From: Candidatus Micrarchaeum sp.
Lineage (GTDB): Archaea; Micrarchaeota; Micrarchaeia; Micrarchaeales; Micrarchaeaceae
Length of the DNA: 32,000 bases
Reading direction: 5' to 3'
Assembly: GCF_016806735.1 (NCBI RefSeq)
Contig: NZ_CP060530.1
Location: 150,001 to 182,000 of the forward strand
The notes under the pieces are model-generated. The model did not search any database, was not told the origin of the DNA, and saw only the letters and a program-made list of their open reading frames with translations. The translations under genes and the position numbers were made by a program. Positions 208-31,552 of this stretch are shown here, in pieces (the stretch's first letter is position 1; each line of letters begins with the position of its first letter).

Positions 208-1974
208 ATGCTTACATTGTTGGTTATATTCCCGCTTCTGGCCGCATCGTTCCTGGCCCTGCTTACCTACGGCAAGGAAAAATACACAGGCCCGATAGTG
301 CTTGCGGGAAGCCTGATAACTTCACTGCTGATAGCATATGCATCATTTAGCTCTTACGGCAAAATCCAAGAGCTCGGCTGGTTCGGCATATCCGGATATA
401 CTTTCCATATAACTACGCAACTGCTCCCGCTTAACATCATACTTGCGATGCTTATCGGAATCATAACCCCTCTGATAATGCTTTATTCAATGGGCTATAT
501 TGACTCAAAGATGGAAAGGCCTAGATTCTTCTTCGAGATGGGCATCTTCGCTTCTGCCATGCTGCTTTTTGCAATATCCGGAAACTTCATAACGATGTTC
601 ATAGCCTGGGAGATGCTGGGAATAACGAGTTATCTGCTCATAGGCTTCTGGTACCACAAGGAGCATGCGCCATATGCTGCAAGAAAATCTATATCGACCA
701 TAATAATAGGGGACTTCTCCATGCTGGCGGCAATGCTTATAATATGGTCGTCCTATCACACGTTCAGCTTTTCCGCAATACTCGCTGCCCCCTCTACGGT
801 GTATCTGCCGATAGCAATGATTCTTGTGCTCGTAGCGTGCTTTACCAAATCTGCCCAGTTCCCGTTTCACGAGTGGCTTGCCGACGCCATGGAAGGCCCG
901 ACTCCGGTTTCTGCTTTTCTCCATTCTTCAACAATGGTAAAAGCCGGGGTATTTCTGGTTCTTGTGCTCTCTCCTCTTTTCTTCAAGGCCGGCCTGTCTG
1001 AACTGATACTTTCAATAGGCATAATATCAGTGATTCTCGGAGCCTCAAACGCCATATCATCACATCACGTAAAAAAAATACTCGCGTATTCTACAATAGA
1101 GGACCTAGGTTTGATGTTCGTAGCCATAGGCCTACATGCGATAATAGCTGCAGTGCTGTTCTTCATAGTGCAGGCGTTTTACAAAGCCGTACTCTTCATG
1201 TCTGCAGGCTCGATAATGAGGGCGAACAATGAAGAGGAGGATATATACAAGCTGTACGGCTCATCAAGCAGGAAGTCGCTTTATGTGCCTATGCTGATAG
1301 GCGTGGTTTCCATAGCTGGCATATTTCCTCTAAGCGGATTCTTCGGAAAAGCAGCCATAGACACTGCGGCTTCTTCGAACATTTTCGCGTACGCAATACT
1401 GGTAATAATAGATTTTGCAACAAGCGCCTACATATTCAGGTGGATGTTCATACACTCGCGCAAGAATTCAAAGGCTCATCAAAGCAATTACGCGCAGATA
1501 CCGCGCAGCATGATATACGCTGGTGCGATAACATCTGCGCTTGTAATACTTGCCGCGGTTATTTTCTTCTACATAAGCGGTTTTCTTTCCTATTACGGGT
1601 ACAGTGCAAGTCTTTCGATAAGCCTGCTGGATTCGATAATCGAAACTGTGGCTGTAGCGTTGGGCATAGCCCTATCTTACAAGCTTTTCATCCTTGCAAA
1701 ACCTACAGGGGAGATAAAAACGCGCTTGTATTACGCCCTTTTCAACAGCGTGCTGGTAAATGCAGCATATGCATACATTGCCAATGCGATAATGTATTTT
1801 GCAGAGGGCATTAACGTGCTGGATGAGCTCATATACGGATTCTTCGCCTCCGGAGGCGAAGGCATGGTGGCCATATCAAATAAGCTAAGACTGATAGTAA
1901 CAGGAGATACAAACAATTATCTGATAGCCTTCGTGGCTGGCATAATACTCATAATATTGCTTTTGCTGGTGTAA
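208..1974 (+). CDS. nuoL: NADH-quinone oxidoreductase subunit L (Mrp/ND5-type antiporter-like subunit)
   Basis: 588-aa polytopic membrane protein. It carries the ND5/NuoL signature WEMLGITSYLLIGFWY and the motif SAQFPFHEWLADAMEGPTPVSAFLHSSTMVKAGV. It sits in K-L-M-N order. Confidence 0.9.
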   Translation: MLTLLVIFPLLAASFLALLTYGKEKYTGPIVLAGSLITSLLIAYASFSSYGKIQELGWFGISGYTFHITTQLLPLNIILAMLIGIITPLIMLYSMGYIDSKMERPRFFFEMGIFASAMLLFAISGNFITMFIAWEMLGITSYLLIGFWYHKEHAPYAARKSISTIIIGDFSMLAAMLIIWSSYHTFSFSAILAAPSTVYLPIAMILVLVACFTKSAQFPFHEWLADAMEGPTPVSAFLHSSTMVKAGVFLVLVLSPLFFKAGLSELILSIGIISVILGASNAISSHHVKKILAYSTIEDLGLMFVAIGLHAIIAAVLFFIVQAFYKAVLFMSAGSIMRANNEEEDIYKLYGSSSRKSLYVPMLIGVVSIAGIFPLSGFFGKAAIDTAASSNIFAYAILVIIDFATSAYIFRWMFIHSRKNSKAHQSNYAQIPRSMIYAGAITSALVILAAVIFFYISGFLSYYGYSASLSISLLDSIIETVAVALGIALSYKLFILAKPTGEIKTRLYYALFNSVLVNAAYAYIANAIMYFAEGINVLDELIYGFFASGGEGMVAISNKLRLIVTGDTNNYLIAFVAGIILIILLLLV

Positions 1975-1976
1975 CC

Positions 1977-3395
1977 GTGCTCCCAATAATTTTCTTGATG
2001 CTTGCCATCCTCGGCATAGGGGGACTTGTGGCAGCCCTGGCTGGAAGCTATTCAAGATCCAAGCGCACGGCAATACTTTTTAGTGCAGTGGCGCTTCTGA
2101 TTGCCTCATATATGGTACTAGAAGCCCTCACTTCGCCAGGGTTTCTAGGGAGTACGGAATCGCTTCCGTACATAGGGCAGTTCGGAATATACCTGTCCTT
2201 TACCATAACGCAATTCGGAGTAGTGCTAGTGCTGCTTGCTTCGATAGTCTCTTTCGCAGCATCGGTCGCAGTTTCAACCAAATTTGAGGACAACAAAAAT
2301 CTTTATCCTCTCATATTGCTTTTTGAATTCTCGGCCATTGGGCTGTTCGTCTCGGCCAACCTGTTCCTTTTCTACATATTCTGGGACGTTGGCGTAGTGG
2401 CATCATACTTCCTGATAAGCGCTTTCGGAAAAGGCGAGAACAAGCACGCGGCAAACACCTTTCTAATATATTCCATATTTGCCAGCGCCGTCCTGCTTTT
2501 TGGCATTATGCTGATATATTTTTACACTCCAGTGCATTCGTTCGACATAAGTTACATAGCGTCTCACAGCTTCGAAATACCTGCAGATATACAGGGTACG
2601 ATATTCACGCTATTTTTTATAGCATTCATGGTAAAAATGCCAATATTCCCGTTTCATTCATGGATTGCAAACGCGTATTCTGAAGCCCCTACGCAGGGGT
2701 CAATGCTCATATCCGGAGTGCTGTCAAAATTCGGGGCCTACGGCATGCTGCTGCTTTTCACTGTTTTCACTTTCTCTTCGGAGTTTGCCAAATATGCATT
2801 TGTGATAGGGGCAATATCTGCGTTCTACGCCGCTTTCGTGGTGATGAGGCAAAAGGACCTCAAAAGGATAACGGCGTATTCCAGCATGCTGGAATCAGGA
2901 ATAATACTGGTTGGCATATCATCGCTCAACGTTTTCGGAATTGCAGGCGCGTTATATCTGATGCTTGCGCACGGCCTCGTGATGGCCTTGATGTTCGCAG
3001 TAATTGGCGGCATAGAAATTTCATACGGCAGCAGGAACATAACGATGCTGAAGGGCATAGTGAGGGATTCGGTAGGATCTGCATATTCCTTCTTGGTCGG
3101 CACCTTCGCATCCACTGGAATACCTTTGACTGCTGGATTCATAGCCGACGTTCTTATATTCATAGGCGCAATAAAAACCTACGGGCTATATGGGGCAATA
3201 CCAATATTCAGCATAATGCTGCTCGGTTTTTACATGTATTACGCGGTAAACAAATCATTCCTTTCTACGAAGGAATCATCACAGAGCATAGCCAAGCTGC
3301 CCAGGCAGATGGCGTTTACATATGCTATTGCAATGGCTGCAATATTCATTTTCGGAATATTCCCGTATCTGATAACTGCACTTTTCGGGATATGA
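1977..3395 (+). CDS. nuoM: NADH-quinone oxidoreductase subunit M (ND4-like)
   Basis: 472 aa with a GTG start 2 nt after the nuoL stop. Motif: FPFHSWIANAYSEAPTQGSMLISGVLSKFGAYGM. Confidence 0.9.
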   Translation: MLPIIFLMLAILGIGGLVAALAGSYSRSKRTAILFSAVALLIASYMVLEALTSPGFLGSTESLPYIGQFGIYLSFTITQFGVVLVLLASIVSFAASVAVSTKFEDNKNLYPLILLFEFSAIGLFVSANLFLFYIFWDVGVVASYFLISAFGKGENKHAANTFLIYSIFASAVLLFGIMLIYFYTPVHSFDISYIASHSFEIPADIQGTIFTLFFIAFMVKMPIFPFHSWIANAYSEAPTQGSMLISGVLSKFGAYGMLLLFTVFTFSSEFAKYAFVIGAISAFYAAFVVMRQKDLKRITAYSSMLESGIILVGISSLNVFGIAGALYLMLAHGLVMALMFAVIGGIEISYGSRNITMLKGIVRDSVGSAYSFLVGTFASTGIPLTAGFIADVLIFIGAIKTYGLYGAIPIFSIMLLGFYMYYAVNKSFLSTKESSQSIAKLPRQMAFTYAIAMAAIFIFGIFPYLITALFGI

Positions 3396-3404
3396 GTGGT
3401 ATAA

Positions 3405-4799
3405 ATGTTTGAAATCTTGAATTTTGCCATACCAATTATCTTCGTAGGGCTTATAGCATCTGGACTCGCCACGGCAATGCACAAAAACAAAAAGCTGTCT
3501 TTCCTGTCCAATACGATAATGCTGCTCCTGGTTCTGGCATTCGGGATATACTATTCCGCATTTTCAATCTCATTCAATGCTGTCTCGCTATACCATGTCT
3601 ATCCGTTTTCATCGTTCCTTCTGGTTCTGTTTTCCCTGGCCCTGCTCACAGTCAATACTGCAGCACTGCATCTCGACGAAAAATACGTAAAATTCGGAAC
3701 GATGCTTCCCCTACTTTCCGTTGGCATACTCTCAGTAGGCATGGCCGCTTCGTTACTTACAATAATAGTTTCAATAGAGCTAATGACAGTTCCGACGATA
3801 TTGCTTATAGCATTCAGCGGAAAGCAGTTTGCAGAGCCTGCGACTAAACTTTTTCTCATGGCCGCGATATCCATAGCAGTGCTTGCGTTTGCCATAACTC
3901 TGGTCTTTCCGTATGATTCTAGCTTGTCGCTCTCGCAGGCAGCATCGGGCAACGTAGGCTCCCAATACTTCTTGGTATTGGCTCTGGTGCTGCTTGTAGC
4001 ATCGCTAGGCACGGAAGCTGCACTATTCCCATTCGATCTTTGGATACCGGACGTTTATCAGGGATCTCCGCACAGCGTAAGTCCGCTTCTGGCAGGAGTA
4101 AACAAGAAAGTGGCGTTCGTAGCCCTGATAGAAATAGCATTCGTGGTATTTTCCGGCCAAAAGGCAGAAATATCCTTGGTATTCGAGGTGCTTGCCATAC
4201 TTACAATGTTCTTCGGCAACCTCGGGGCAATGGTACAGACAAACGTGAAGCGCATGCTGGCATATTCATCCATATCGCAGGCAGGATACATAATGGTCGG
4301 CCTTGCCGCATTTTCGGCCTTCGGTCTAGAAGCGTCTCTTTTCCAGATATTTGCGCATTCGTTCATGATAATAGGCGCTTTTGTTCTGGCTGGCTTTTTA
4401 TCAATGGAAGGGCTCAATACAATAAACGACTATTCTGGCTTATATAAGAGAAGCGGTTTCCTTGCGTTTTCGCTTACTATAATGATGCTGTCAATGGCAG
4501 GCATACCCGGTCTCATCGGCTTCGTCGGCAAGTTTCTGCTGTTCTCCAGCGCAATAAGCTCCGGATTGATTGCCCTGGCCTTTTTGGGAATAATAAACAG
4601 CTTTCTCTCGATATACTACTATGGCAAGCTTATAAGCAACGTCTATTCCAGCAGATCTCACAAGACAATGCACGTGCCAAAGACAATATATCTTCCAATA
4701 TTGGCCACAGTTATAATAATAATCGTTTTCGGCGTATATCCCACGCCCCTGATGTATCTGGCTCATTCGGCTGCAGCATCACTGTTCTCGATTATTTGA
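3405..4799 (+). CDS. nuoN: NADH-quinone oxidoreductase subunit N (ND2-like)
   Basis: 464 aa. Motifs: FPFDLWIPDVYQGSPHSVSPLLAGVNKKVAFVAL and KRMLAYSSISQAGY. It is the last gene of the nuo string. Confidence 0.9.
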   Translation: MFEILNFAIPIIFVGLIASGLATAMHKNKKLSFLSNTIMLLLVLAFGIYYSAFSISFNAVSLYHVYPFSSFLLVLFSLALLTVNTAALHLDEKYVKFGTMLPLLSVGILSVGMAASLLTIIVSIELMTVPTILLIAFSGKQFAEPATKLFLMAAISIAVLAFAITLVFPYDSSLSLSQAASGNVGSQYFLVLALVLLVASLGTEAALFPFDLWIPDVYQGSPHSVSPLLAGVNKKVAFVALIEIAFVVFSGQKAEISLVFEVLAILTMFFGNLGAMVQTNVKRMLAYSSISQAGYIMVGLAAFSAFGLEASLFQIFAHSFMIIGAFVLAGFLSMEGLNTINDYSGLYKRSGFLAFSLTIMMLSMAGIPGLIGFVGKFLLFSSAISSGLIALAFLGIINSFLSIYYYGKLISNVYSSRSHKTMHVPKTIYLPILATVIIIIVFGVYPTPLMYLAHSAAASLFSII

Positions 4800-10286: not shown

Positions 10287-10745
10287 ATGTCTGCGGAGGT
10301 AAAAATGGCGATAAAATATTGGGAATTCGAAGATGCGCCTTTCAGGGAGAAGGTCAAGAACCCAAAGGTTGCGGACATTGCAAGGATATTCTTCGAAAAC
10401 GAAACCGAGGCGTACAGGTTCGCCGTACTCTTAAGCATGGCAAAGAAGGGCGGGTTAAGGCTCAAGGATGTCCCTGAAGGAATACCGGTCGCCACGGCAA
10501 AGAGATACCTGGATTATGCAGTCCAACTGGGCCTGCTGAAGCACGAAAATTCAATATACGAGCTTACGGACAGGTATTCTAAGCCTTTTAGGAACATAGC
10601 ATCTTACATAAAGGCATGGATGGAGACGCCTTTGGAAGAGGATCTCTCGACAGAGTTTGTTAATGCGAAGCAAGGGAAGCAGGACAAAAGAGGAGGAAGA
10701 AGCCAAAAAGAAAGCGCGGATTCGGGCCCGGCGGGAATTCCATAA
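10287..10745 (+). CDS. Hypothetical small protein, probable winged-helix DNA-binding fold with a basic/low-complexity C-terminal tail
   Basis: 152 aa. The segment ...IPVATAKRYLDYAVQLGLLKHENSIYELTD resembles a wHTH recognition helix plus wing. The last ~8 codons overlap the 3' exon of the opposite-strand tRNA-Arg. No family is recognised with confidence. Confidence 0.5.
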   Translation: MSAEVKMAIKYWEFEDAPFREKVKNPKVADIARIFFENETEAYRFAVLLSMAKKGGLRLKDVPEGIPVATAKRYLDYAVQLGLLKHENSIYELTDRYSKPFRNIASYIKAWMETPLEEDLSTEFVNAKQGKQDKRGGRSQKESADSGPAGIP

Positions 10746-10829
10746 CATTAGCGAACCGCTAAACTTATTTTGAACCCGCGACCATCAGCTTAGAAGGCTG
10801 CTGCTCTGTCCAAGCTGAGCTACGGGCCC
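10723..10829 (-). tRNA. tRNA-Arg (anticodon UCU) with a 32-nt intron (10737-10768) in the T-loop between positions 59/60
   Basis: Hand fold. Acceptor GGGCCCG/CGGGCCC; D-arm GCTC-AGCTTGGACA-GAGC; anticodon arm GCAGC-CTTCTAA-GCTGA; T-stem GCGGG/CCCGC. The T-stem is split by an insert that forms an hBHBh' motif: H = TTCA/TGGA, bulges AAA and ATT, h' = TAA/TTA plus the TTAGCG-GTT-CGCTAA hairpin. The spliced T-loop is TTCAAAT. Confidence 0.85.
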
Positions 10830-27855: not shown

Positions 27856-28380
27856 TCACGGTTTTGAAATTATGCTCCTGTTTTCTGCAAGCGCCTTTTT
27901 AGCCTCATTCTTATTCATGCCCAGGGCACCGCATATTGCCATAAGCTGCTGCGGCGCAAGCACTTCGGCCTCGTTCCTTGCAAGCGAAGCAATGCCTATT
28001 GCTATATCCTTCCCGAGCATAATTTCGGTGCAGTCGCGGAACCTGCCCATCAGCAGCGCGCGGTATGTTCCGTAAGCATTTTCTATTGCAGACGCGTCTA
28101 TTATGAATGAGGCTCCATAATCCTTCATATCTTTGACATATTTCTCCATCTCGCCAAGCGTTTCGGGATTCTGGGGTATTATTGCTTTGACCCCGTTCTT
28201 CAGGTAAGGTACAAGGCTTTCGCTCTTGGAAGAATAAACAACTGCTTTTCCGTTGGCCGACCCGGGATCCTTCGCGAAATCGAAATCCTCTCCTTCTATT
28301 ATGACACTGCGGAAACCCAAGCGCTCGAAAAGTCCGCGCGCGTTTGCCATGCTGCTACGCGCCGCGTCGTAATATGCCAA
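27856..28380 (-). CDS. RNase P protein component 3 (Rpp30 family), short form
   Basis: 174 aa. The C-terminal half, YRALLMGRFRDCTEIMLGKDIAIGIASLARNEAEVLAPQQLMAICGALGMNKNEAKKAL, parallels Pyrococcus Rpp30 (...[27 protein letters not shown]...). The gene order also supports the call. Confidence 0.6.
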   Translation of the reverse strand: MAYYDAARSSMANARGLFERLGFRSVIIEGEDFDFAKDPGSANGKAVVYSSKSESLVPYLKNGVKAIIPQNPETLGEMEKYVKDMKDYGASFIIDASAIENAYGTYRALLMGRFRDCTEIMLGKDIAIGIASLARNEAEVLAPQQLMAICGALGMNKNEAKKALAENRSIISKP

Positions 28381-28388
28381 GTAAACAC

Positions 28389-29609
28389 CTAATCATCTTC
28401 CTTCTTTTCAGAATTTCCGTTGAGCCCGAATATGTTCTTTTCAAGGACGGCGCGCGTCTTCTGCGTCGGATAAAGCAGCTTTATGAGTTTCGTGTGGCCC
28501 CTTATCCCCTTGCTCGAATCAAATGACGCTATCAGCCCCTGCATCTCCAGTTCTGATATGTAGTTTCTGTACCACCTTTCGCTTTTCGGCACCCTTTTGA
28601 GCCCTTCTGCTATGGACTTATACCTGTTGTAAACCTCTCCGCTGAAAAGGTAAGTGTCTATGCCGTCGGTAAGCTTCTTGTAAGAGCCCCCGCTCTGCGC
28701 AAGCAGGACTATGGAATAAAGAACCAGCTTCTGGTGCTCCGGAAGCGAAGATATAAGCTCGTAAACTATTTCGCTCTCGGCCATTTTTATTGCCTCTTCC
28801 GCTTCAGCCATGGTTATCTTGTCCCTTCCATGCTCTTCGGCTAGCTCCCCTGATTTCGAAAGTATCTTAAGCGACAGCCTTGCGTCTCCGCCCTCCTTTG
28901 CAGCAGCCGCTGCGATGAAATGCAATATGTCTTCATCAACTACTCCTTTCTTGAAGCCGGTCTCAGCCCTGTCTTTTACTATCTCATAAAGCTCGTCAGA
29001 ATAATAGGACGGGAACACGAGCTCGCTTTCGTATAGGGCCGAGAGGCTTCTGGGATCCAACTCCTCTTTGAAAGAAACCTTGTTGGATATGCCTATCATG
29101 GCCACTCCCCCGGACCTTATCTCGCTGTTTATCCTGGTCATTGTGTATACGAGGTCGTCGAGGTCCTTGACCATGTCTATCTCGTCGAGCACGAGAACCA
29201 GTATCTTGTTGTCTTCTTCTATCCAGCTAGTAAGCTTCCCGTACAAATCTATGATGCCGTATCCTCTTCTTGCGTAATTCGGCATGTGGTCCGCTATGAC
29301 CTTGTTGAGGACCCTAAATCGCGTGTTGTACATCCTGCAGTTTACGTACGAAACCCTGGCCTTGGTGTTCGGTATGTCCTTTATCTCGGATATGACATAT
29401 CTGGCGCATGTTGTTTTGCCGGTTCCAGTTCTTCCGTATACAAAAAGGTTTCTGCCTTTCTCTCCCTCCAATGCCGGCTTTATTGCCTTCTCTATGCTGT
29501 TTATCTCCTTTTCCCTAAGTATAAGCTTCTTGGGGGTGTAGTGCGGCGATAAGACCTCACGCTGAGCAAATATCTTTGATTCGCCTATGATGTCCTTCAA
29601 AGTCTGCAT
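28389..29609 (-). CDS. cdc6: Orc1/Cdc6 replication initiator (AAA+ plus winged helix)
   Basis: 406 aa. Walker A is YGRTGTGKTT and Walker B is VLVLDEIDMV. The C-terminal winged-helix region is ...ISELEMQGLIA.... Confidence 0.92.
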   Translation of the reverse strand: MQTLKDIIGESKIFAQREVLSPHYTPKKLILREKEINSIEKAIKPALEGEKGRNLFVYGRTGTGKTTCARYVISEIKDIPNTKARVSYVNCRMYNTRFRVLNKVIADHMPNYARRGYGIIDLYGKLTSWIEEDNKILVLVLDEIDMVKDLDDLVYTMTRINSEIRSGGVAMIGISNKVSFKEELDPRSLSALYESELVFPSYYSDELYEIVKDRAETGFKKGVVDEDILHFIAAAAAKEGGDARLSLKILSKSGELAEEHGRDKITMAEAEEAIKMAESEIVYELISSLPEHQKLVLYSIVLLAQSGGSYKKLTDGIDTYLFSGEVYNRYKSIAEGLKRVPKSERWYRNYISELEMQGLIASFDSSKGIRGHTKLIKLLYPTQKTRAVLEKNIFGLNGNSEKKEDD

Positions 29610-29653
29610 ATTAAACCCCCTTGCCGCTAGCAGGCTTGCCTATCGCCAAACAT

Positions 29654-29974
29654 CTAACTTATCATGTTCATGTTCTTAAGCTTGCTTATATCCATGAGGC
29701 TGTACCTCCACACTATGTCGCCGCGCTCGTTGGCCTGAACGCTCCACGGCTTTACCAGCACGACATCGTTTTCCTTTATCCAGAACCTCCTTCTGAGCCG
29801 TCCCGGGATTATGCATAGCCTCTGGTTGCCGTCGCTGCAATCTACCAGGAATCTCGTGGATCCCACTATCTTCGAGACCCTTCCTACGACCTCGCCGTTG
29901 TTCGGCATCTTGGTCTGATAAGATACCGGTGCACCCCTCCTACTATCATGAGTCCTTCCTTCGTTTTTTCCCAT
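29654..29974 (-). CDS. eif1a: Translation initiation factor aIF-1A
   Basis: 106 aa with an S1-like OB fold: GEVVGRVSKIVGSTRFLVDCSDGNQRLCIIPGRLRRRFWIKENDVVLVKPW. Confidence 0.92.
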   Translation of the reverse strand: MGKNEGRTHDSRRGAPVSYQTKMPNNGEVVGRVSKIVGSTRFLVDCSDGNQRLCIIPGRLRRRFWIKENDVVLVKPWSVQANERGDIVWRYSLMDISKLKNMNMIS

Positions 29975-29981
29975 CTAACCA

Positions 29982-30413
29982 TCAATAGTTCTTCAATCCG
30001 TACCTTGCGCCGCACGCCTCGCATACGAGCATGAGCATTCCTCTGCCGGCATTTTCAAGGTGCGTATCGGGCTTGTGGCACTCCCTGCAGATGACGTAGG
30101 TCTCAAAATATTTGTGTATCTCCTTGTCCAGCTGCTCCTGGGCGAATTTTCCTGTGAGTACTAGCCTCTGGTCCTCCATGCTAGTCGGCACTCCAAATTC
30201 CCTGCTTAAATATCTTGCGATATCCGAGACGTCCCTCCTTGCCTTGTCGGCAATTATTGCCATGTTTCTTATTATCGTCTTGTTTCCCTGCACCATGGAT
30301 TCCACTGTGGGTATTACGAAATCGGATTTCTCCGCTTCTAGTGTGGGAAGCTTCGAAAAAGCCCTGTCGAGCAATTCCGAGTATTCTTTGTCATTTATTT
30401 CAATCACCAGCAT
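29982..30413 (-). CDS. eif2b: Translation initiation factor aIF-2 subunit beta
   Basis: 143 aa. It has the N-terminal motif YSELLDRAFSKLP and the C-terminal zinc ribbon CRECHKPDT...CEACGA. Confidence 0.9.
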   Translation of the reverse strand: MLVIEINDKEYSELLDRAFSKLPTLEAEKSDFVIPTVESMVQGNKTIIRNMAIIADKARRDVSDIARYLSREFGVPTSMEDQRLVLTGKFAQEQLDKEIHKYFETYVICRECHKPDTHLENAGRGMLMLVCEACGARYGLKNY

Positions 30414-30493
30414 ATTATTCTAGAGAATAAAATATTTAGCATATGCTATTTTGAGCCTTTTCACTCTATCCCATTCTTATCTCCGCAAACCTA

Positions 30494-30500
30494 TTTATAA
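30494..30500 (+). promoter_or_regulatory. TATA box (TTTATAA) for the SRP RNA
   Basis: It lies about 25 nt upstream of the inferred SRP RNA 5' end, in an AT-rich context. Confidence 0.5.
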
Positions 30501-30520
30501 CTCATTATTGAATATAAGCC

Positions 30521-30787
30521 TTGGCGGATAGGCTGGGAAGCTAAGGGTTTCCCGTTCGCAAATCCCTTTCTGGCGGGCCAATGCCGGTTGCGTTATGCAA
30601 GCGGCTTTTGCGCCCAGATGGAAGCGTTGATGCCTTGCCCCAGGTGGTAGCTTGGTGCGTGAACCAGGCCAGGCCGGAAGGAGCAACCTTAAGCACATTC
30701 AGGCTACGCTCCCGGGATACGGGGCTGAGCTGAAGTATGGTCAACGCAACTGCTGCTTGCATGGCAAGGCCGGCTTCCGCCGCTAAG
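30521..30787 (+). ncRNA. Signal recognition particle RNA (7S/SRP RNA)
   Basis: The helix-8 signature CCAGGCCAGGCCGGAAGGAGCAACC (30664-30688) parallels E. coli 4.5S CCAGGUCAGGUCCGGAAGGAAGCAGCC. The 5' GGCGGATAGGCTGG and 3' CCGGCTTCCGCC ends are complementary. The ends are approximate (about +/-5 nt). Confidence 0.85.
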
Positions 30788-30821
30788 ATTTAAAAACAGT
30801 GCAAACGTAAATGAATAGCAT

Positions 30822-30922
30822 GCCGGGGTCGCCTAGAGGTATGCGCAAGCACTCTAAAGGGCGGCAGCCTGCTAAGCTGTTTGGCTGAAAGGCCTTCGTG
30901 GGTTCGATTCCCACCCCCGGCG
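30822..30922 (+). tRNA. tRNA-Ser (anticodon GCU) with a 17-nt intron (30841-30857) in the D-loop between positions 20/21
   Basis: Hand fold. Acceptor GCCGGGG/CCCCGGC; anticodon arm GCAGC-CTGCTAA-GCTGT; long variable arm GGCT-GAAA-GGCC; T-arm GTGGG-TTCGATT-CCCAC. The D-stem GCCT/GGGC encloses an exact hBHBh' motif: H = AGAG/CTCT, bulges GTA and AAA, h' = TGC-GCAA-GCA. Confidence 0.85.
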
Positions 30923-30926
30923 CTCA

Positions 30927-30931
30927 TTTTT
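30927..30931 (+). terminator. T5 run 4 nt downstream of tRNA-Ser
   Basis: The sequence is gctcaTTTTTc immediately after the discriminator base. Confidence 0.4.
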
Positions 30932-30970
30932 CAATGCCATAAAAATTCGGCATCTTCAAAATGCGTGCTT

Positions 30971-31552
30971 TCATGAAAGCATTCCGAGCACATCGCTGGT
31001 TTTTCTTACCAAGCCTATCCTCGGAAATATATTCTTGACTGTCGCATCGTGTTCCTCCCTGCTCATCGCGCCCATGGCGTCCTCGACGAATATCTGGTTG
31101 TAGCCGTTCTGGTATGCCTCTCTTGCAGTAGATTCGACTCCTATGTTCGTCGATATTCCGCACAGCACTATGTTTTTTATTCCCCTGCGCCTGAGCTGCA
31201 GGTCGAGCTCGGTGCCGTGAAAAGCGCCCCAATGCCTCTTTGTTATTATTATGTCTCCTTTCTGCGCATTCATTTCTGGCACGAATTCGTCCCAGTCTGC
31301 AGGCCTTTCGCCTCCCCAATTCGGTGCGCTGTCCACTATCGGATTGAGCATGTCCTTCCCATCTATGGAAGACACGTGCACCAGACACACAGGCGCTTTG
31401 TTCTCCCTGAACTTGGCTGCAAGCATCGCAGCGTTCGCAACAACTTCCGATGCAGCATTCGGTTCGATGTTTCTTCCGCTTGCGGCTATCCCCTTCTGCA
31501 GGTCTATAACTACGAGGGCTGTTTCCTTGAAATTGAATCTTTTCTCCTCCAT
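30971..31552 (-). CDS. Isochorismatase-family cysteine hydrolase
   Basis: 193 aa. The catalytic triad context is ALVVIDLQ (Asp), ITKRHWGAF (Lys) and VLCGISTNIGVEST (Cys). Confidence 0.85.
   Translation of the reverse strand: MEEKRFNFKETALVVIDLQKGIAASGRNIEPNAASEVVANAAMLAAKFRENKAPVCLVHVSSIDGKDMLNPIVDSAPNWGGERPADWDEFVPEMNAQKGDIIITKRHWGAFHGTELDLQLRRRGIKNIVLCGISTNIGVESTAREAYQNGYNQIFVEDAMGAMSREEHDATVKNIFPRIGLVRKTSDVLGMLS

What the first reader, a model, noticed from the sequence alone, without database searches (positions are those of the whole stretch)
30822..30922. tRNA-Ser(GCU) with a 17-nt D-loop intron (20/21) capped by a GNRA tetraloop
Seen directly: the region between the D-stem strands GCCT and GGGC is 26 nt, too long for a D-loop.

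It folds exactly as hBHBh':
- H = AGAG/CTCT.
- 5' bulge GTA.
- h' = TGC/GCA closed by GCAA.
- 3' bulge AAA.

Removing 30841-30857 leaves a D-loop AGAGGTA that retains G18 and G19.

Together with tRNA-Arg, two of the three tRNA genes in 32 kb carry introns at non-canonical positions, and neither is at 37/38. That density suggests the genome as a whole is rich in such introns. The 17-nt intron is close to the minimal size that can still form a BHB.
Basis: partly seen in the sequence, partly recalled or inferred. Interest (0 to 1): 0.6.

Follow-up and report, generated by a model that had tools for sequence, protein, structure and literature searches.

The report
D-loop intron in Micrarchaeum tRNA-Ser
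This is a real serine tRNA gene of a tiny acid-mine archaeon, interrupted in its D-loop by a 17-base intron that is almost certainly cut out by the cell's splicing enzyme; it is a clean but ordinary example of a known kind, and the well-studied relative ARMAN-2 has an intron of the same size at the same spot.

Summary
Confirmed, with one slip: 24 nt, not 26, lie between the D-stem strands. The gene (30822-30922, +) is the only tRNA-Ser(GCU) found in a genome matching Ca. Micrarchaeum harzensis. Its 17-nt insert (30841-30857) forms a strict hBHBh' at 20/21: the minimum-energy fold, matched by 29 of 100,000 shuffles. Of 54 orthologs, 26 are intronless and nearly all read like the predicted spliced product; 28 carry a 14-35-nt insert at the same site, with compensatory changes in the central helix. 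The genome encodes an epsilon2 splicing endonuclease with intact catalytic residues, and RtcB. My census gives 19 of 44 tRNA genes interrupted, 11 at non-canonical sites, which supports the 'intron-rich genome' guess. The GNRA loop is not conserved and 17 nt is not minimal (14-15 nt in relatives). Position 20/21 is published, and ARMAN-2 carries a 17-nt intron here too. RNA contigs could not show splicing, so splicing is inferred. First readers of this scan noted the same intron in two other genomes. Mildly interesting: presence switches at least 5 times (best estimate 9) across the order. Ordinary; low interest.

The parts
30822..30840 (+). 5' exon of tRNA-Ser(GCU), positions 1-20 (acceptor 5' strand, D-stem 5' strand, D-loop A14 G15 A16 G18 G19 U20)
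   Evidence: sequence; identical to the 5' part of intronless orthologs L015 and L025
30841..30857 (+). 17-nt intron at position 20/21
   Evidence: best of 593 deletion products against a profile of 23 intronless orthologs; best BHB-compatible deletion by ARAGORN score; absent in 26 of 54 orthologs
30835..30838 (+). BHB central helix H, exon strand AGAG (pairs with 30852-30855)
   Evidence: 15 of 15 intron-bearing rows paired at all four pairs, with a compensatory A-U/U-A change; a C-G version in G033
30839..30841 (+). 5' bulge GTA; inferred cut between 30840 and 30841
   Evidence: MFE fold; cut site inferred from the known EndA rule
30842..30851 (+). inner helix h' (TGC/GCA) closed by a GCAA tetraloop
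   Evidence: MFE fold; first h' pair kept in four different pair types; loop sequence not conserved
30852..30855 (+). BHB central helix H, intron strand CTCT
30856..30858 (+). 3' bulge AAA; inferred cut between 30857 and 30858 (30858 = A21)
   Evidence: MFE fold; cut site inferred from the EndA rule
30858..30922 (+). 3' exon: A21, D-stem 3' strand, anticodon arm (GCU), long variable arm, T-arm, acceptor 3' strand, discriminator G73; CCA not encoded
   Evidence: ARAGORN on the spliced product; Rfam RF00005
30789..30796 (+). TATA-like box TTTAAAAA, 26-33 nt upstream of the tRNA; probable own promoter (inferred)
   Evidence: sequence; not tested
30521..30783 (+). archaeal SRP (7S) RNA gene directly upstream; context, not part of the intron
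   Evidence: Rfam RF01857, 97.2 bits; SRP helix-8 motif upstream of this tRNA in 30 of 30 loci

Best explanation
A functional, single-copy tRNA-Ser(GCU) gene with a protein-spliced archaeal BHB intron at the non-canonical D-loop position 20/21. Shown: the precursor's best fold extends the D-stem into a strict hBHBh'; removal gives the tRNA that intronless relatives encode directly; the genome encodes an epsilon2-type splicing endonuclease with intact catalytic residues and an RtcB ligase. Inferred: the gene is transcribed from its own TATA-like box or together with the upstream SRP RNA; the endonuclease homodimer cuts after 30840 and after 30857; RtcB joins the exons; end trimming and CCA addition finish the tRNA. 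Splicing should be essential, because G18 is locked in the BHB helix (blocking the D-loop/T-loop elbow) and no second gene for AGY codons was found. The intron has no evident role beyond keeping itself excisable: only the bases that make H, the bulges and the first h' pair are constrained.
For: Fold and chance tests. Boundary tests. Intronless orthologs differ from the predicted mature tRNA at only 2 (L015) and 5 (L025) of 84 positions, none in the D-arm. Across 20 orthologs all 495 cells of the 26 pairs are standard pairs, 8 pairs change on both sides, 0 of 500 shuffles reach this, and slid controls drop to 42-56% paired. Exon position 16 and its intron partner co-vary as A-U, U-A and C-G. 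EndA at C1:40419-41585 is 390 aa, E 1e-166 to ARMAN-2 EndA 4FZ2, with Y236, H251, K282 and the ASL lysine K161 conserved. RtcB at C1:369800-371104. No intronless second copy in the genome. The ARMAN-2 enzyme cuts strict and relaxed BHB introns in vitro (PMC3239211).
Against: Splicing of this particular precursor has not been observed; the published ARMAN-2 assays used a 37/38 and a 59/60 intron, not a D-loop one. The profile margin over the next deletion is small (83.1 vs 82.4 bits), and 30841-30857 and 30842-30858 give the same product, so the exact cut sites rest on the BHB rule.
Confidence: 0.96

Rival explanations
1. The insert is never removed; the tRNA works with a D-arm extended by an extra hairpin.
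For: Rfam still scores the unspliced gene at 42.1 bits by skipping the insert. The precursor folds stably with all other arms intact.
Against: The insert keeps exact BHB geometry in orthologs whose inserts vary from 14 to 35 nt, which a structural extension would not need. G18 is sequestered in helix H. Half of the relatives lack the insert precisely.
Confidence: 0.02
2. The intron is real but is cut in another register, for example the 19-nt removal 30840-30858 through a relaxed hBH motif.
For: A second register with four central pairs exists (ARAGORN 115.7 vs 120.3).
Against: It lacks h', leaves a 5-nt D-loop without U20 and A21, and matches none of the 26 intronless orthologs, all of which have a 7-nt D-loop.
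Confidence: 0.015
3. The gene is a pseudogene, or the insert is an assembly artefact or the scar of a mobile element.
For: None found here; integration at tRNA genes has been discussed as an origin of such introns (PMC3239211).
Against: Identical 101-nt gene in four other species-level genomes; compensated stems; the only AGY decoder found in the genome; intron at the same site in 54 of 301 genomes of the phylum, reversed-pattern control 0.
Confidence: 0.005

Closest known systems
Non-canonical BHB introns of Ca. Micrarchaeum acidiphilum ARMAN-2 tRNA genes, cut by the epsilon2 EndA (Fujishima et al. 2011, PMC3239211; Hirata et al. 2012, PMC3488258)
   Same: Same family of organisms, same enzyme type, similar burden (56% of genes interrupted in ARMAN-2, 43% here). 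Genome G023, whose EndA is identical to 4FZ2 over residues 11-387 and is therefore ARMAN-2, has a 17-nt intron at 20/21 of tRNA-Ser(GCU) closed by GAAA (L009).
   Different: Intron sequence differs (H is AGTG/CACT and h' GGC/GCC in ARMAN-2). I could not read that paper's Supplementary Table S2, so I cannot confirm that this gene is listed there. The main text shows only 37/38, 53/54 and 59/60 examples.
Archaeal tRNA introns at position 20/21 (review PMC4090602)
   Same: 20/21 is the first non-canonical position the review lists; length 17 nt lies inside the usual 12-25-nt medians (range 11-129 nt).
   Different: The review names Crenarchaeota and Nanoarchaeota as the rich sources; this case is in Micrarchaeota.
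D-loop introns tested in vitro: Methanopyrus kandleri pre-tRNA-Glu(UUC) 20b/21 and Aeropyrum pernix pre-tRNA-Thr (PMC5829648, PMC3241643)
   Same: D-loop location, removal by an archaeal EndA.
   Different: The M. kandleri intron is a relaxed HBh' handled by an (alpha-beta)2 enzyme; this one is a strict hBHBh' in an epsilon2 organism.

Membership tests
Archaeal BHB tRNA intron (EndA-spliced) | 4-bp central helix flanked by two 3-nt bulges on opposite strands at the exon-intron junctions | tested here: met
   MFE; 29 of 100,000 shuffles; covariation
Archaeal BHB tRNA intron (EndA-spliced) | Strict form: outer helix h and inner helix h' both present | tested here: met
   h = 4 bp, h' = 3 bp
Archaeal BHB tRNA intron (EndA-spliced) | Cutting after the second base of each bulge restores a canonical tRNA | tested here: met
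   ARAGORN tRNA-Ser(GCT); top of 593 products; D-arm identical to intronless orthologs
Archaeal BHB tRNA intron (EndA-spliced) | Host encodes a splicing endonuclease and a 3'-phosphate ligase | tested here: met
   EndA; RtcB
Archaeal BHB tRNA intron (EndA-spliced) | Spliced product present in cellular RNA | tested here: inconclusive
   Only assembled contigs were available, and they cannot resolve a 19-nt 5' exon
Archaeal BHB tRNA intron (EndA-spliced) | Cleavage by the cognate EndA in vitro | not testable with these tools
   bench assay needed
epsilon2 EndA (ARMAN-1/-2 type) | About 390-aa three-unit polypeptide with catalytic Y236/H251/K282 and ASL K161 | tested here: met
   full-length match to 4FZ2, E 9.7e-167, all four residues conserved in the alignment
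tRNA-Ser (class II) | GCU anticodon, long variable arm, G73 discriminator | tested here: met
Guide-RNA-bearing tRNA introns (box C/D, as in tRNA-Trp) | C and D boxes and a guide sequence inside the intron | tested here: not met
   17 nt with no C or D box; interior not conserved among orthologs

The most novel reading that the evidence does not exclude
The 20/21 intron of tRNA-Ser(GCU) is an old intron of the order that has been lost precisely several times (once inside the genus: G007 is intronless yet nested with full support among intron-bearing species), while its interior drifts freely between 14 and about 39 nt. The orthologous set would then be a natural series for testing how archaeal tRNA introns are lost and how small a D-loop BHB substrate can be. 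I found no paper describing this per-gene pattern in Micrarchaeota, but the held library is partial.
Probability: 0.5. Interest if true: 0.3.

Novelty: new member of a known kind. Interest (0 to 1): 0.12.

Why it matters
Practically, standard finders drop this gene or call it tRNA-Pyl, which could produce a false claim of pyrrolysine use or of a missing AGY decoder in Micrarchaeota. Scientifically it adds one well-supported example to a described phenomenon. The only added value is comparative: one site occupied in about half of the relatives, with exon-intron compensation and repeated presence/absence switches in genomes that nearly all carry the same long-type endonuclease. Enzyme type therefore permits such introns but does not decide where they persist.

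Tried and rejected
RNA evidence: four RNA-labelled runs were laid on 30450-31050. All were assembled contigs. No joint skipping 30841-30857 appeared; X1 and X3 hold the unspliced form, but X1 has contigs up to 135 kb and may contain DNA, and contigs cannot show a 19-nt 5' exon. This is no evidence either way. One search used a mis-registered structure string and is void; one search is the correct run. ARAGORN without scores accepts hundreds of deletions and cannot fix boundaries. G006 was first suspected to be ARMAN-2 and rejected; G023 is. No second copy of the intron sequence in the genome, so no sign of recent intron transposition. The sigma-70 promoter scan does not apply to archaea and was uninformative. 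Marck and Grosjean 2003 and the supplements of Fujishima 2011 were not held. Searches for tRNA-Pro(GGG) and tRNA-Arg(CCG) found nothing.

Full report
Observation. The gene lies at 30822-30922 on the + strand, 38 nt downstream of an archaeal SRP RNA gene (Rfam RF01857, 30521-30783). All tRNA arms are present, with anticodon GCU, a long variable arm and discriminator G; CCA is not encoded. Between the D-stem strands lie 24 nt, not the 26 stated. They fold as described: H AGAG/CTCT, bulges GTA and AAA, h' TGC/GCA closed by GCAA, and the D-stem as outer helix. This is the MFE and centroid structure of the precursor (z -3.03). Only 29 of 100,000 shuffles of the insert give as strict a motif. ARAGORN misses the unspliced gene or calls it tRNA-Pyl, and calls tRNA-Ser(GCT) once 30841-30857 is removed.

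Boundaries. Among BHB-compatible deletions, 30841-30857 scores best (120.3 vs 115.7). Against a profile of 23 intronless orthologs it is first of 593 products (83.1 bits; next 82.4; unspliced 72.5). Deleting 30842-30858 gives the same product, and the rule that EndA cuts after the second bulge base (established knowledge) selects 30841-30857. The 7-nt D-loop numbers as A14 G15 A16 G18 G19 U20 A21, so the position is 20/21. Rfam's tRNA model gives the unspliced gene 42.1 bits, and only by skipping the insert. Intronless orthologs that differ from the predicted product at 2 and 5 positions score 55.1 and 60.5.

Organism and machinery. The genome is one contig of 989,838 bp with 45.8% G+C, the figures published for Ca. 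Micrarchaeum harzensis (PMC8975820). It encodes one 390-aa endonuclease that matches ARMAN-2 epsilon2 EndA (4FZ2) over its full length, E 9.7e-167. The triad Y236/H251/K282 and the ASL lysine K161 that PMC3488258 shows to be required are conserved. RtcB is present. No intronless copy of this tRNA exists in the genome.

Relatives. The gene was found in 54 of 60 genomes of the order. Twenty-eight carry an insert after exon base 19 (14-35 nt) and 26 have a plain 7-nt D-loop. In a 20-row alignment every predicted pair is kept (495 of 495 cells), eight pairs change on both sides, no shuffle reaches these values and slid registers fall to 42-56%. The structure was derived from the window sequence and rows are related, so the shuffle figure is not a probability; the informative part is the exon-intron pair at position 16, which is A-U, U-A or C-G in different genomes, and the first h' pair, which takes four pair types. 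The inner loop is GNRA in several short introns but TAAA, ATAT, ATAA or longer in others, so it is not required. A strict pattern finds the intron in 54 of 301 genomes of the phylum, mostly in two families, with 0 hits for the reversed control; this is a lower bound. On an EndA tree of 50 genomes the label needs 9 changes (8-10 in bootstraps, at least 5 forced by well-supported branches; shuffled mean 17). The tree is single-gene and unrooted, so gain and loss cannot be separated in general; G007, intronless and nested among intron-bearing congeners, is most simply a precise loss. Most of the 60 genomes have a near-full-length EndA homolog whether or not they carry this intron.

Genome census. 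Combining Rfam, ARAGORN and BHB-guided deletion, I count 44 tRNA genes, 19 interrupted. Eight have only a 37/38 intron (Trp, Gly-CCC, Ser-UGA, Tyr, Met, Thr-CGU, Thr-UGU, Leu-GAG). Eleven have a non-canonical one: D-loop in Ser-GCU, Leu-UAA and Gln-CUG; 30/31 in Ser-CGA; T-loop in Arg-UCU, Arg-CCU, Arg-UCG, Cys, Ala-GGC, Leu-CAA and Ser-GGA (which also has 37/38). Lengths run from 13 to 67 nt. Two of these loci (Ser-GGA, Cys) came from earlier scan notes and were checked here.

Mechanism. Shown: fold, boundaries, conservation, presence of the enzymes. Inferred: transcription from the TATA-like box at 30789-30796 or read-through from SRP; two cuts by the epsilon2 homodimer; ligation by RtcB; end maturation and CCA addition. 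Because G18 sits in helix H, the unspliced form should not make the tRNA elbow, so splicing is probably essential. Not shown: splicing in vivo; the RNA contigs were uninformative.

Comparison with what is known. Position 20/21 is a listed non-canonical site, and 17 nt is a typical length (PMC4090602). Fujishima et al. 2011 reported that 56% of ARMAN-2 tRNA genes are interrupted and that its enzyme cuts strict and relaxed motifs (PMC3239211). Genome G023 has an EndA identical to the crystallised ARMAN-2 enzyme, and its tRNA-Ser(GCU) carries a 17-nt, GAAA-capped intron at the same site. The ortholog was therefore in the genome analysed in 2011, though I could not read the table that would list it. 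First readers of this scan flagged the same intron in two other genomes.

Verdict. Real, correctly interpreted, and ordinary for the lineage: a new member of a known kind, possibly already catalogued through its ARMAN-2 ortholog. Interest 0.12.

Noticed in passing
window 30521-30783 (+) and loci L002-L031: The SRP RNA gene lies directly upstream of tRNA-Ser(GCU) in all 30 loci checked (helix-8 motif about 125-280 nt upstream; 820 nt in L024). A 7S RNA/tRNA-Ser link is known from Methanothermus fervidus (Haas 1990, cited in PMC3035299). The SRP RNA is short (263 nt) and lacks about 40 model positions in one helix.
   Followed up: partly
window 10723-10829 (-): tRNA-Arg(UCU) with a 32-nt T-loop intron at 59/60 (window 10737-10768) forming a strict BHB (4/4/3 pairs); ARAGORN 122.9 after removal.
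   Followed up: yes
G000 whole genome: No tRNA-Pro(GGG) or tRNA-Arg(CCG) found by four search methods. ARMAN-2 has a Pro(GGG) with two T-loop introns, so a multiply interrupted gene may have been missed, or CCY codons are read by Pro(UGG).
   Followed up: partly
G000:C1:77707-77781 (+): tRNA-Ile(UAU) is intronless here, whereas the ARMAN-2 gene has a 25-nt 37/38 intron (PMC3239211): another presence/absence switch.
   Followed up: no
G000:C1:39804-39877 and 40419-41585: The EndA gene lies about 540 nt from tRNA-Lys(CUU) and 2 nt downstream of a 253-aa ORF that looks like a diphthine synthase-type methyltransferase (by eye, not scanned).
   Followed up: no
window 27856-30413 (-): Cluster aIF-2beta (29982-30413), aIF-1A (29654-29974), Cdc6/Orc1 (28389-29609), divergent from the SRP/tRNA pair; a replication origin may lie near cdc6 (not tested). 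Window 208-4799 holds three NADH dehydrogenase/Mrp membrane subunits.
   Followed up: no
L027 (G021):1454-1568 and several hits: Some orthologous introns end in CACG rather than CACT, putting an A-G mismatch at the first pair of H: relaxed versions of the same intron.
   Followed up: no
G000:C1:780550-781530 and about 860777-876460: Near-identical repeated blocks (about 1 kb apart at 780-781 kb; about 14.3 kb apart at 861-876 kb) turned up during tRNA searches.
   Followed up: no
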